64,000 nucleotides of DNA from Escherichia coli. Lineage in GTDB: Bacteria > Pseudomonadota > Gammaproteobacteria > Enterobacterales > Enterobacteriaceae. How positions within the stretch are numbered: position 1 is the first letter of the stretch; each line of letters opens with the position of its first letter. The DNA is taken from the NCBI RefSeq assembly GCF_003334255.1, contig NZ_QOWU01000017.1. One strand, written 5' to 3'. Of this stretch, positions 9,001 through 12,000 are shown piece after piece. Position numbers: made by a program.

Positions 9001-12000
9001 CACTCCACCGACGCCGGAAAAGCGCTATTCCATTCGCTGCCGGAGATGGCGACGCGACCGGACATGACCGCGCACTGGGAATCGGTGCTGACGCAAATCA
9101 GCGAAAAGCAGTGTCGCTATCAGGACTTTATGCAGCCGCTGGTGGGGACGCTATATCAGCTTATTGATCAAGCCAAACGTACGCCGGTGCGGCAGTTTCG
9201 CGGCATTGTGGCTCCGGGCAGTGGTGGCAGTGCTGATAAGAAAAAGGCTGCACCGCGTAAACGTAGTGCGAAAAAAAGTCCGCCAGCAGATGAAGTCGGA
9301 AGCGGGGCGATAGCGTAAGCGAGTGAATCTTTCGTGCTATTCGAGTCATATTCTGAAATATCCAGCGGATCAAGAAAATTCGTTGGATATTTTTTTTGCA
9401 TGGATAAAATTATCGCCTCTAAAGTATGTAATAACAGGGAATGTGATGAAAAAAGTTTTATTACAAAACCATCCTGGGAGCGAGAAGTATTCTTTTAATG
9501 GCTGGGAAATATTTAATAGTAATTTTGAACGGATGATTAAAGAAAATAAGGCCATGCTGCTTTGTAAGTGGGGGTTTTATTTAACATGTGTTGTCGCTGT
9601 AATGTTTGTGTTCGCAGCGATAACATCCAACGGTTTGAATGAAAGAGGCCTGATTACCGCGGGATGCTCTTTTCTTTATCTATTAATTATGATGGGGCTT
9701 ATTGTTCGGGCCGGTTTTAAAGCAAAAAAAGAACAACTGCATTATTATCAGGCTAAAGGTATTGAGCCGCTCAGTATCGAGAAGTTACAGGCGCTACAAT
9801 TGATCGCACCTTATCGATTCTATCATAAGCAATGGTCTGAAACGCTGGAGTTCTGGCCGCGAAAGCCTGAACCTGGCAAAGATACCTTCCAATATCATGT
9901 GCTTCCTTTTGACTCGATCGATATCATAAGTAAAAGACGCGAGTCTTTAGAGGATCAATGGGGTATCGAAGATAGCGAAAGTTATTGTGCCTTAATGGAG
10001 CATTTTCTTTCTGGCGACCATGGAGCCAATACCTTTAAAGCAAACATGGAGGAAGCCCCAGAGCAGGTTATCGCCTTGTTGAATAAATTTGCTGTTTTTC
10101 CCTCAGACTATATCTCTGATTGCGCTAATCATAGCTCCGGTAAATCCTCGGCGAAGCTAATATGGGCGGCGGAATTATCATGGATGATCTCGATATCAAG
10201 CACAGCTTTTCAAAACGGGACAATTGAAGAAGAACTGGCCTGGCATTATATAATGCTTGCTTCTCGAAAGGCGCACGAGTTGTTCGAAAGCGAAGAAGAT
10301 TATCAAAAAAATAGTCAAATGGGATTTCTTTACTGGCATATCTGCTGCTATCGCAGAAAGTTAACGGATGCTGAACTTGAAGCGTGTTATCGTTACGACA
10401 AGCAGTTTTGGGAGCACTACAGTAAGAAATGCCGTTGGCCCATAAGAAATGTTCCGTGGGGAGCATCATCCGTTAAATACTCATAAACGCCTGAAATTTT
10501 GCCGGGGGCGCTGCGCTTGCCCGGCCTACATTAGAGCGTAACTGCAATGAATTGTGCCCATTTGTAGGCCTGATAAGCGTAGCGCCATCAGGCATTTACA
10601 ACTTAAATCACACCCTGCGCCAGCATCGCATCGGCAACCTTCACAAAACCGGCAATGTTCGCGCCCTGCACGTAGTTGGTTTGCTCACCTTCACCACCAT
10701 GCTCAACACAGGCATGGTGGATATCCAGCATGATGTGATGCAAACGTGCGTCAACTTTCTCGGCTTTCCAGCCCAGGCGCGCAGCGTTTTGTGCCATTTC
10801 CAGGCCCGATGTAGCGACGCCACCAGCATTAGCCGCTTTACCCGGTGCAAATAGTACGCCTGCCTGCTGGAACAGTTCAGTCGCTTCGATGGTGGTCGGC
10901 ATATTTGCCCCTTCGGCGACGGCTTTAACGCCATTAGCGATAAGCTGATGCGCGGCGTCAACATCCAGTTCATTCTGGGTGGCGCAAGGCAGGGCGATAT
11001 CAACCGGTAGAGACCACGGCTGTTGGCCTTCGAGATAGACCAGACCAAATTCTTTGGCGTAATCTGCCACTCGACCATCGCGGCTGGCTTTGATTTCGAT
11101 AAGACGTGCCAGTTTCTCTTTCGTGAATCCGCTTTCATCAACTACAGTGCCGCTGGAGTCTGACGCAGTGATCACACGAGCACCAAATTCCATCGCTTTT
11201 TCGATAGCGTACTGGGCGACGTTGCCGGAGCCAGAAACGGAAACGCGCATCCCTTCAAAACCCATACCGTGGCGTTTTAGCATTGCTTCTGTGAAATAAA
11301 CCAGACCGTAGCCGGTAGCTTCCGGGCGAATAAGACTGCCGCCAAATGAAAGGCCCTTACCGGTGAAGACGCAGGCGGTATTGTTGGAGAGCTTTTTCAT
11401 CATCCCCGCCATAAAGCCGACTTCACGACCACCAACCCCGATATCACCTGCCGGAACGTCGGTATCCGCGCCCAGGTGGCGATACAGTTCAGTCATCAGC
11501 GCCTGGCAAAAACGCATCACTTCACCTTCGCTTTTTCCTTTCGGATCGAAATCGCTGCCGCCTTTACCACCGCCCATCGGCAGAGTAGTCAGGGCATTTT
11601 TGAAGGTTTGTTCAAAGCCGAGGAATTTGAGAATGGAAAGGTTAACTGACGGATGGAAGCGCATACCGCCTTTGTACGGGCCGATGGCAGAGCTGAACTG
11701 CACACGCCATGCACGGTTGACCTGTATCTGGTTGCGATCATCAACCCATACCACGCGAAACTGGATCACGCGCTCCGGTTCAACCAGACGCTCCAGTAAT
11801 GACATCTGGCGATATTTTGGATTTTGTTCAAGAAAAGGCCAGAGTGTGGTCATTACTTCACGAACGGCTTGCGCGAACTCGGTTTGATTCGGGTCGCGCT
11901 TTTGGACATGGTTGAGGAATGACTCCAGAGAATATGTCTGATCCATAGATATAAAACCCTTATATATTAATACGATTGTGCTTATGTTGTTTATGTCATG

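What the first reader, a model, noticed from the sequence alone, without database searches (positions are those of the whole stretch)
9320..10500. ynjI: AT-rich orphan membrane gene wedged between topB and gdhA
The composition drops sharply relative to topB and gdhA. The upstream region has a long AT-rich leader, and a REP/BIME element sits directly downstream. The pattern suggests an acquired gene, probably H-NS-silenced; its function is unknown.
Basis: inference. Interest (0 to 1): 0.35.

Follow-up and report, generated by a model that had tools for sequence, protein, structure and literature searches.

The report
ynjI: old AT-rich accessory membrane gene
This is the known E. coli gene ynjI, a low-GC inner-membrane protein of unknown function that sits in a swappable slot between topB and gdhA; it is optional within the species, but it is old and conserved rather than newly imported.

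Summary
ynjI (9446-10486, +) has 41% GC, against 55% for topB and 53% for gdhA. A 35%-GC spacer lies upstream and a two-REP BIME lies downstream.

- ynjI is not an orphan. It belongs to a small, conserved family with an N-terminal LLQNHPG motif, two membrane helices and a cytoplasmic DUF1266 domain.
- It is optional. Of 5426 complete E. coli genomes, about 3465 carry it. In 1514, topB and gdhA are 76 bp apart. In 355 the slot holds an HscC-like Hsp70 plus a J-domain/Sel1 gene. About 30 carry a mosaic ynjI allele.
- It is not a recent import. Pseudocitrobacter has ynjI in the same slot, with synonymous divergence (1.18) equal to that of the flanks (1.22-1.33). dN/dS is 0.07-0.14, and GC stays at 39-43% in every lineage.
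- H-NS silencing has partial published support: moderate derepression in an hns stpA mutant and strong activation by BglJ-RcsB. The candidate activator box is conserved across genera.

Function remains unknown. The best lead is a link to HscC-type Hsp70/J-protein systems. DUF1266 paralogues ybeR and ybeU are translationally coupled to djlB and djlC. This is a known gene and a largely ordinary finding.

The parts
9220..9318 (+). Haplotype-specific 3' tail of topB (the last ~33 codons, after [10 protein letters not shown]). This is the left edge of the variable cassette.
   Evidence: Nucleotide identity between E. coli haplotypes is 94-100% along topB and falls to 50-71% in the last 100 nt. ynjI-linked TopB tails are 83-95% identical across genera. 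They are only 42-67% identical to the tails of the empty and Hsp70 haplotypes, although the TopB bodies are 99.2-99.8% identical among the four E. coli haplotypes.
9349..9364 (+). Candidate BglJ-RcsB activator box: core TATTCTGA at 9349-9356, inside the conserved block ATTCTGAAATATCCA.
   Evidence: The core matches the published motif wwTTCykA. The paper places the box centre 65-68 nt upstream of the ynjI transcription start, and mutating the box abolished activation (PMC3950696). The block is invariant in six orthologous loci from at least three genera. The exact placement here is my inference.
9355..9397 (+). Terminator-like hairpin (16 pairs) followed by T8. It is the likely intrinsic terminator of selD-topB and is carried on the ynjI cassette.
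   Evidence: RNAalifold on six orthologues keeps 15 of the 16 pairs intact in every sequence and shows 2 fully compensatory pairs.
9383..9410 (+). Inferred ynjI promoter: -35 TTGGAT (9383-9388), 16-nt spacer, -10 TAAAAT (9405-9410), transcription start near 9418.
   Evidence: Inferred from the sequence and from the published box-to-start distance. Both hexamer regions are conserved in the orthologues. It falls below the threshold of the consensus scan.
9436..9440 (+). Shine-Dalgarno-like AGGGA, 5 nt upstream of the ATG.
   Evidence: Sequence. ACAGGGAATGTGATG is conserved in the orthologues.
9446..10486 (+). ynjI CDS (346 aa, b1762).
   Evidence: RefSeq annotation of identical DNA. NCBIfam NF008480 scores 671 bits against a cut-off of 386. 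dN/dS is 0.07-0.14 among orthologues.
9458..9478 (+). Codons for the family-wide N-terminal motif LLQNHPG (residues 5-11).
   Evidence: Q7 and N8 are at least 90% conserved across 51 family members that share only 19-28% overall identity. The first 10 residues have mean pLDDT 87 in the AF2 model.
9560..9712 (+). Transmembrane helical hairpin (TM1 about residues 39-60, TM2 about 66-89). Predicted topology is N-in/C-in.
   Evidence: Hydropathy peaks and AF2 helices 36-60 and 66-104. K+R counts are 6 before TM1, 1 in the loop and 5 after TM2; the topology is inferred from the positive-inside rule.
9944..10459 (+). Cytoplasmic DUF1266 domain (residues 167-338).
   Evidence: Pfam PF06889, E 2.9e-25, full model coverage. 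hhalign against the YbeU/YbeR family gives probability 97.1% and E 5e-11. The model is all-alpha with mean pLDDT 91.9.
10501..10593 (.). BIME: REP1 10501-10529 (+) and REP2 10564-10593 (-), between the convergent ynjI and gdhA genes.
   Evidence: It is retained in the PT62 and Pseudocitrobacter ynjI loci. It is replaced by a different single REP-like element in the empty haplotype, and absent from the Hsp70 haplotype.
10603..11946 (-). gdhA. Its stop codon marks the right edge of the variable cassette.
   Evidence: Haplotype identity returns to 94-100% from the gdhA stop onward.

Best explanation
ynjI is a real gene under purifying selection. It encodes an inner-membrane protein with a conserved cytoplasmic N-terminal LLQNHPG motif, a two-helix membrane hairpin and a cytoplasmic all-alpha DUF1266 domain.

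It is one allele of a multi-allelic accessory slot. The slot runs from the last ~100 nt of topB to the gdhA stop codon. In E. coli it exists as:
- K-12-type ynjI (about 64% of complete genomes);
- empty (about 28%);
- an HscC-like Hsp70 plus a J-domain/Sel1 gene pair (about 7%);
- a mosaic ynjI allele (under 1%).

The ynjI cassette carries its own topB tail, terminator hairpin, promoter and BIME. It is old. It occupies the same slot in Pseudocitrobacter and has diverged in step with the flanks. Its ~42% GC has been held through more than one synonymous substitution per site. The low GC is therefore a maintained property, not the trace of a recent transfer.

Expression is normally low. It is moderately repressed, directly or indirectly, by H-NS/StpA. 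It is switched on by the BglJ-RcsB activator through a box just upstream of the promoter (published).

Inferred and much less certain (about 0.25): the DUF1266 domain works with HscC-class Hsp70/J-protein chaperones at the inner membrane, as an adaptor, regulator or client.
For: Shown here:
- Composition.
- Family membership and architecture.
- Four slot states and their counts.
- Same-slot synteny in Escherichia sp. MOD1-EC7003, Pseudocitrobacter vendiensis, a Hadza gut contig and contig L020.
- dS of ynjI between K-12 and Pseudocitrobacter is 1.18, against 1.22 for topB and 1.33 for gdhA. dN/dS is 0.07-0.14. GC is 0.39-0.43 in all six orthologues, while topB GC3 in the three non-E. coli loci measured is 0.57-0.66.
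- The TopB tail co-segregates with the cassette.
- The regulatory spacer is conserved and the hairpin covaries.
- No direct repeats, tRNA, plasmid or phage carriage.
- Matches to the H-NS high-affinity motif are enriched 3.6-fold, in the top 2.2% of windows.

From the literature:
- BglJ-RcsB activation, box mutagenesis and moderate hns stpA derepression (PMC3950696).
- HscC works with the tail-anchored DjlB and DjlC at the membrane, and its clients are unknown (PMC8215388).

For the chaperone link:
- In K-12, ybeR-djlB and ybeU-djlC are gene pairs with 4-bp overlaps next to hscC and to the Sel1 genes ybeQ and ybeT.
- The DUF1266-J pair recurs in Salmonella and Leminorella.
- The YnjI and YbeU families are homologous.
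- The only other cargo seen in this slot is an Hsp70 43% identical to HscC, plus a J protein whose Sel1 part is 35% identical to YbeQ. The same cassette sits in the same slot in Klebsiella oxytoca.
Against: - ynjI is never adjacent to a J-domain or Hsp70 gene in the loci inspected.
- YnjI and YbeU/YbeR are related only at profile level; BLASTP gives E 0.025-0.05.
- Two related cargos in one slot could be coincidence.
- No interaction data exist.
- The genome-wide scan used two strict peptide patterns, so absence from other genera may be partly false negative.
- Equal dS does not strictly exclude an ancient transfer.
- H-NS binding at ynjI was not shown directly in anything I could read, and the published effect is described as moderate and possibly indirect.
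- A W42 amber lineage, IS1 insertions and truncated Shigella copies show the gene is dispensable.
Confidence: 0.65

Rival explanations
1. One reading: ynjI is a recently acquired foreign gene, still AT-rich because it has not had time to drift toward host composition, and kept silent by H-NS.
For: - Low GC, low CAI and many rare codons.
- Absent from about 36% of complete E. coli genomes, and from nearly all other species representatives scanned.
- Moderately derepressed in an hns stpA mutant.
- H-NS-like motifs are enriched.
Against: - Same slot and same regulatory spacer in Pseudocitrobacter, with ynjI dS 1.18 matching flank dS 1.22-1.33.
- GC3 stays at 0.36-0.43 in all lineages although synonymous sites are saturated.
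- dN/dS is about 0.08.
- No integrase, tRNA, direct repeats, plasmid or phage copies.
Confidence: 0.1
2. Simple presence/absence: ynjI is ancestral at this site and the empty state is a plain deletion. The slot has no special 'cassette' behaviour.
For: - ynjI has diverged in step with its flanks across genera.
- Decay is seen in some lineages: W42 amber, IS1 insertions and Shigella truncations.
Against: - The empty haplotype differs from the ynjI haplotype in more than a gap. Its topB tail is only 61% identical at protein level, although the TopB bodies are 99.8% identical, and it carries a different REP-like element.
- A third, unrelated cargo (Hsp70 plus J/Sel1) occupies the same boundaries, both in E. 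coli and in Klebsiella.
- The PT62 allele is a mosaic with internal breakpoints.
Confidence: 0.15
3. Conflict-system reading: the slot is a small defence or competition hotspot. YnjI would be a membrane-anchored sensor, effector or immunity protein, and the Hsp70/J/Sel1 pair an alternative system.
For: - The locus is multi-allelic with very divergent alleles, including an imported mosaic.
- Distant YnjI relatives lie near a YobI-type ATPase and a Sel1 protein (L015), or next to a SMI1/KNR4 (SUKH) immunity-type gene (L019).
- The Hsp70 has a weak hit to the PADLOC candidate PDC-M61B (E 3.5e-4).
Against: - YnjI has no PADLOC or PHROG hit.
- Strong purifying selection, with no sign of diversifying selection.
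- Not on phages or plasmids.
- Most relatives are solitary genes among housekeeping genes.
Confidence: 0.1
4. The ORF is non-functional: a chance ORF or a decaying pseudogene in AT-rich spacer DNA.
For: - Low expression.
- Inactivated in some lineages.
- No known phenotype in the papers read.
Against: - dN/dS is 0.07-0.14 across pairs whose synonymous sites are saturated.
- 51 aligned relatives share invariant Trp and Gly residues and motifs.
- The AF2 model is confident: pLDDT 91.9, pTM 0.88.
Confidence: 0.02

Closest known systems
YbeR and YbeU (E. coli K-12 DUF1266 proteins in the ybeQ-hscC cluster)
   Same: They share the DUF1266 domain (Pfam PF06889; hhalign probability 97.1%, E 5e-11). 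Shared motifs are WGI, G-H-S/A, W-x-D-x-x-R, E-E and LPW. They are also optional, low-expression genes. A DUF1266 gene in strain 042, probably ybeR or ybeU by its locus tag, is strongly H-NS-repressed.
   Different: YbeR and YbeU are soluble 235-aa proteins whose genes overlap the J-protein genes djlB and djlC by 4 bp. YnjI has an added N-terminal motif and membrane hairpin, stands alone, and is too diverged for BLASTP to detect the relationship.
HscC / DjlB / DjlC specialised Hsp70 system
   Same: The alternative occupant of the ynjI slot is an Hsp70 43% identical to HscC, with a J-domain/Sel1 partner. HscC is thought to act at the inner membrane on unknown clients (PMC8215388). YnjI is anchored in the inner membrane with a cytoplasmic domain.
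   Different: YnjI has no ATPase, J or Sel1 domain and is not encoded next to such genes. Any functional link is inference.
BglJ-RcsB regulon of H-NS-repressed, AT-rich loci (bgl, leuO, yecT, chiA, ynbA and others)
   Same: ynjI is a published member. Its promoter is activated by BglJ-RcsB, box mutation abolishes activation, and it is moderately up in an hns stpA mutant.
   Different: Derepression without H-NS/StpA is only moderate, unlike chiA or yidL. The authors group ynjI with promoters where BglJ-RcsB acts like a classical activator, positioned 65-68 nt upstream of the transcription start.
E. coli REP/BIME elements between convergent genes
   Same: Two inverted REPs ending in GGCCTAC form a long stem between two convergent stop codons. 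A canonical REP elsewhere in the window matches the consensus exactly.
   Different: REP1 is diverged from the consensus. The BIME belongs to the ynjI haplotype and is absent from the empty and Hsp70 haplotypes.

Membership tests
Pfam DUF1266 (PF06889) | Significant match to the family HMM over most of the model | tested here: met
   E 2.9e-25, residues 167-338, model positions 1-175 of 175.
NCBIfam NF008480 (PRK11380, YnjI equivalog) | Whole-protein score above the curated cut-off | tested here: met
   671 bits against a cut-off of 386, covering residues 1-346.
YnjI-type membrane DUF1266 subfamily (defined here) | N-terminal (L)LQN(H)PG motif, then two hydrophobic helices, an EQxxYY motif and a C-terminal DUF1266 domain | tested here: met
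   51-sequence alignment A2, AF2 model and hydropathy.
REP/BIME | Imperfect palindromic ~30-nt units ending in GGCCTAC, paired in inverted orientation in an intergenic region | tested here: met
   REP2 matches the degenerate REP pattern with 0 mismatches, against 0 expected by chance. REP1 is its inverted partner, 83% complementary.
Recently acquired xenogeneic island | Mobility signatures: integrase, tRNA target, flanking direct repeats, or copies on plasmids or phages | tested here: not met
   Direct repeats are only short chance matches. The window has no tRNA. The only 'plasmid' hit is a mislabelled 4.8-Mb chromosome, and the only 'phage' hit is a 1.9-kb fragment.
Recently acquired xenogeneic island | Divergence or phylogeny out of step with the flanking core genes | tested here: not met
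   For the K-12-type allele, dS against Pseudocitrobacter is 1.18 for ynjI, 1.22 for topB and 1.33 for gdhA. The rare PT62 allele does meet this test: its dS is saturated against flank dS of 0.05-0.09.
H-NS-silenced gene | AT-rich relative to the genome, with H-NS-type motifs | tested here: met
   GC is 0.413 against 0.500 for the window. There are 7 matches (up to 2 mismatches) to TCGATAAATT against a mean of 1.9, in the top 2.2% of windows. The motif consensus was recalled from memory.
H-NS-silenced gene | H-NS occupancy, and derepression when H-NS is removed | not testable with these tools
   Literature only: 'moderately increased' in an hns stpA bglJ-deleted strain, direct or indirect (PMC3950696). 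I found no ChIP data.
HscC-type Hsp70 / J-protein module | DUF1266 gene translationally coupled to a DjlB/DjlC-type J-protein gene | tested here: not met
   True for ybeR-djlB and ybeU-djlC, and for their Salmonella and Leminorella counterparts. ynjI and its relatives are solitary.
HscC-type Hsp70 / J-protein module | Physical or genetic interaction with HscC, DjlB or DjlC | not testable with these tools
   No multimer prediction or experiment was available.
Known anti-phage defence systems (PADLOC) and phage protein families (PHROGs) | HMM match to a catalogued component | tested here: not met
   YnjI has no hits.

The most novel reading that the evidence does not exclude
DUF1266 proteins may be dedicated partners of HscC-class Hsp70/J-protein machines, as adaptors, regulators or preferred clients. 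The topB-gdhA slot of Enterobacteriaceae would then alternate between two pieces of that one module. One piece is a membrane-anchored DUF1266 protein (YnjI). The other is a compact Hsp70 + J/Sel1 pair. That would give the long-orphaned HscC system its first candidate membrane partner. It would also explain why this AT-rich cassette has been kept, under its own BglJ-RcsB control, since before Escherichia and Pseudocitrobacter split.
Probability: 0.25. Interest if true: 0.55.

Novelty: already known. Interest (0 to 1): 0.3.

Why it matters
ynjI is an annotated E. coli gene, and its BglJ-RcsB and H-NS/StpA regulation is published.

Two points go beyond that and are modestly useful.
- ynjI is a clean counter-example to reading low GC as recent import. 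The cassette has diverged in step with its neighbours across genera and has held about 42% GC throughout.
- The same slot holds either a DUF1266 membrane protein or an HscC-like Hsp70/J-Sel1 pair. DUF1266 genes are coupled to J-protein genes elsewhere. Together these give a concrete, testable lead on what DUF1266 and the poorly understood HscC system do.

Tried and rejected
- Sequence libraries. Searches against PDB sequences, PHROGs and PADLOC found nothing meaningful for YnjI.
- Rfam found nothing in 9100-10800.
- Mobility signs. A search for flanking direct repeats and tRNA targets found none.
- I tested whether the J/Sel1 protein hides a DUF1266 domain. It does not.
- HMM searches of the window and of the neighbour loci found no extra DUF1266 copies.
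- Domain fusions. The only one found was DUF1266 + DUF6630, which is uninformative. A YbeU homologue search showed no J-domain fusions.
The narrow alignment A3 was used instead.
- Literature. Searches for b1762, for ybeU/ybeR, and for HscC with phage defence gave nothing useful. Other papers that mention ynjI only list it in screens or tables.
- The upstream GTG-start ORF (9323, 387 aa) was rejected as the true start. The N-terminus MKK.LLQNHPG is conserved family-wide, and the upstream stretch holds the terminator and promoter.
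Full report
**What is there**

The window is E. coli DNA. The order is selD (6303-7352), topB (7357-9318), ynjI (9446-10486, + strand) and, converging on it, gdhA (10603-11946, - strand). 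DNA identical to 9200-10700 is annotated in RefSeq as 'ynjI: DUF1266 domain-containing protein' in BL21(DE3) and many other strains.

- ynjI has GC 0.413 and GC3 0.418. topB has 0.551/0.589 and gdhA 0.533/0.545.
- That is the 4th lowest GC of 47 long ORFs in the window, and only 5% of 1041-bp windows are as AT-rich.
- CAI is low (0.221 against a mean of 0.318) and rare codons are twice as frequent.

**The protein**

YnjI is 346 aa. It matches Pfam DUF1266 over residues 167-338 (E 2.9e-25) and the NCBIfam equivalog NF008480 (671 bits against a cut-off of 386).

It is not an orphan, though the family is small. A filter-free search of 1.84 billion representative proteins gave 83 hits. About 50 of them are full-length relatives of 340-400 aa at 23-35% identity. 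Foldseek finds them in Xenorhabdus, Hafnia, Pragia, Acinetobacter, Chitinophaga, Haliangium, Microbacterium, Clavibacter and others.

A 51-sequence alignment shows one shared architecture:
- a nearly invariant N-terminal LLQNHPG motif;
- two hydrophobic helices;
- an EQxxYY motif;
- the DUF1266 domain, with invariant W130, W266, G293 and W338 and near-invariant E135 and E262.

**The flanks**

The 127-bp spacer upstream (35% GC) is not a long leader. It holds three things.
- A 16-pair hairpin followed by T8 (9355-9397), which looks like the topB terminator. Across six orthologous loci, 15 of the 16 pairs are kept in every sequence and two pairs change on both sides.
- The conserved block ATTCTGAAATATCCA (9350-9364). 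Its core TATTCTGA fits the published BglJ-RcsB motif wwTTCykA.
- A plausible promoter: TTGGAT, 16 nt, TAAAAT (9383-9410).

This promoter would put the transcription start near 9418, 66 nt from the box centre. The paper reports 65-68 nt for ynjI (PMC3950696). The placement is my inference.

That paper shows three things. The ynjI promoter is activated by BglJ-RcsB. Mutating the box abolishes activation. ynjI mRNA is 'moderately increased' in an hns stpA mutant lacking bglJ and 'strongly increased' with constitutive bglJ. Matches to the H-NS high-affinity motif are 3.6-fold enriched over ynjI, which is only suggestive.

Downstream, two inverted REPs (10501-10529 and 10564-10593) form a BIME with a very stable stem. 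Rfam finds nothing in the region.

**The slot within E. coli**

Among 5426 complete genomes:
- 3465 carry the K-12-type segment;
- 1514 carry an empty junction with topB and gdhA 76 bp apart, including ST131;
- 355 carry a 3.9-kb insert encoding an Hsp70 and a J-domain/Sel1-repeat protein;
- about 30 carry a ynjI allele only 67-68% identical in protein.

Together these account for about 99% of genomes.

The variable segment is not a clean insertion. Haplotypes are 94-100% identical along topB and gdhA. They diverge sharply in the last ~100 nt of topB, the Lys-rich C-terminal tail, and stay divergent up to the gdhA stop.

The rare allele is a mosaic. It matches K-12 closely (88-100% per 50-nt block) up to about 9600, is 38-78% identical from there to the stop codon, and is 98-100% identical again from 10501.

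ynjI also decays in places:
- a lineage with a W42 amber codon (TGG to TAG at 9570);
- IS1 insertions;
- truncated Shigella copies.

**Beyond E. coli**

A scan of one genome per species (100,044 species) with two YnjI peptide patterns found three loci. These were Escherichia sp. MOD1-EC7003 (91% identity), Pseudocitrobacter vendiensis (82%) and a 926-bp 'Bacillus' contig that is plainly E. coli contamination. In the two real hits, and on three metagenome or read-assembly contigs, ynjI sits between topB and gdhA.

Divergence tells the history.
- Between K-12 and Pseudocitrobacter, ynjI dS is 1.18, topB 1.22 and gdhA 1.33. dN/dS for ynjI is 0.08.
- All six orthologues keep GC at 0.39-0.43, next to flanks with GC3 of 0.57-0.66.
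- ynjI-linked TopB tails are 83-95% identical across genera. They are only 42-67% identical to the tails of the empty and Hsp70 haplotypes inside E. coli, where the TopB bodies are 99.2-99.8% identical.

The ynjI cassette (tail, terminator, promoter, gene and BIME) is therefore an old linked unit. It has diverged with its neighbours, has been lost or replaced repeatedly, and has had its low GC maintained. There are no mobility signatures and no plasmid or phage copies. 'Acquired' may be true in the distant past, but 'recent foreign gene' is not supported.

**Function**

Nothing in the papers I could read assigns a function. The best lead is contextual.
- In K-12, the two other DUF1266 genes, ybeR and ybeU, each overlap by 4 bp the J-protein genes djlB and djlC. 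They lie beside the Hsp70 gene hscC and the Sel1 genes ybeQ and ybeT.
- The DUF1266-J pair recurs in Salmonella and, at another locus, in Leminorella.
- Profile comparison shows the YnjI and YbeU/YbeR families are homologous (probability 97.1%, E 5e-11).
- The only other cargo in the ynjI slot is a compact version of that same module. Its Hsp70 is 43% identical to HscC. Its J domain is DjlC-like. Its Sel1 region is 35% identical to YbeQ.
- The same pair sits in the same slot in Klebsiella oxytoca.
- HscC is thought to act at the inner membrane with the tail-anchored DjlB and DjlC on unknown clients (PMC8215388).

I therefore propose that YnjI is a membrane-anchored DUF1266 partner of HscC-type chaperones. 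I put this at only about 0.25, for four reasons. ynjI and its relatives are always solitary. The J/Sel1 protein has no hidden DUF1266 domain. Sharing a slot could be coincidence. There are no interaction data.

A conflict-system role is a weaker rival. A few distant relatives lie near YobI-type ATPase or SUKH-type genes. Against it, there is no defence-catalogue hit and selection is plainly purifying.

**Verdict**

The gene and its regulation are already known, so as a finding it is ordinary. The additions are the four-state slot, the evidence that the AT-rich cassette is old and its low GC maintained, and the DUF1266-HscC lead. They are modest but testable.

**Limits**
- Counts rest on megablast coverage thresholds.
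- The species scan used strict patterns.
- dS near or above 1 is imprecise.
- The promoter and box placement, the topology and the chaperone link are inferences.

Noticed in passing
L014:12855-16791 (E. coli ST361); L028:5699-9772 (Klebsiella oxytoca): In about 355 E. coli genomes and in K. oxytoca, the topB-gdhA slot holds a 566-aa Hsp70 (43% identical to HscC) plus a 647-657-aa J-domain/Sel1-repeat protein. The cassette has 43-45% GC in E. coli and 54-56% in Klebsiella. Variants exist with IS1 insertions or a second Sel1 remnant (L011, L036).
   Followed up: partly
L013:3202-4233 (strain PT62); window 9600-10490 equivalent: A rare E. coli ynjI allele is a mosaic. The promoter, the first ~50 codons and the BIME match K-12 closely (88-100% per 50-nt block). 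The rest of the gene is 38-78% identical, with synonymous sites saturated, so an internal segment was imported from an unknown, distant ynjI carrier.
   Followed up: partly
window 9569-9571; L032: A sizeable E. coli lineage (a cluster of 752 database sequences) carries TGG to TAG at Trp42 of ynjI. Gene callers there report a 264-aa N-terminally truncated protein.
   Followed up: yes
window 9220-9318: The Lys-rich C-terminal tail of topoisomerase III differs sharply between slot haplotypes (42-67% identity) although the rest of TopB is over 99% identical within E. coli. Whether the tail variants affect TopB function is unknown.
   Followed up: partly
window 10487-10602: A published genomic SELEX study lists an RpoS-holoenzyme binding peak (intensity 79.5) in the convergent gdhA/ynjI spacer at MG1655 position 1841754. 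This appears to correspond to the BIME spacer; I did not map the coordinate onto the window (PMC5493296).
   Followed up: no
window 41172-41987; 49323-51222; 62296-63009: Other clearly AT-rich genes in the window are ydjO (GC 0.355), the arpB pseudogene (0.36-0.39) and rflP/ydiV (0.423). They may be further H-NS-type targets.
   Followed up: no
L016:6001-7107; window 45083-46520: In another enterobacterium, a 28%-identical YnjI-family gene sits alone between the kinase gene yniA and yniB. These two genes are directly adjacent in this window. This is a second example of a solitary YnjI-type gene wedged between conserved neighbours.
   Followed up: no
L024 (NZ_ABFU01000109.1); H111 (NZ_OL790696.1); H112 (OR844794.1): There are database artefacts. 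A 926-bp 'Bacillus coahuilensis' contig is 100% identical to E. coli ynjI. A 4.8-Mb E. coli chromosome is filed as a plasmid in PLSDB. A 1.9-kb 'phage' record contains a ynjI fragment.
   Followed up: no
window 38098-38131 and 30952-30985: Canonical REP elements lie elsewhere in the window. One matches the recalled 34-nt REP consensus exactly.
   Followed up: no
L037:6001-7614: One metagenomic relative fuses DUF1266 to a second uncharacterised domain, DUF6630, and lies next to an AraC-type regulator gene.
   Followed up: no
L015:318-3755 and 8171-9130; L019:7177-7701: Two distant YnjI relatives have conflict-system-like neighbours: a YobI-type ATPase and a Sel1-like protein in L015, and a SMI1/KNR4 (SUKH) gene in L019.
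   Followed up: no
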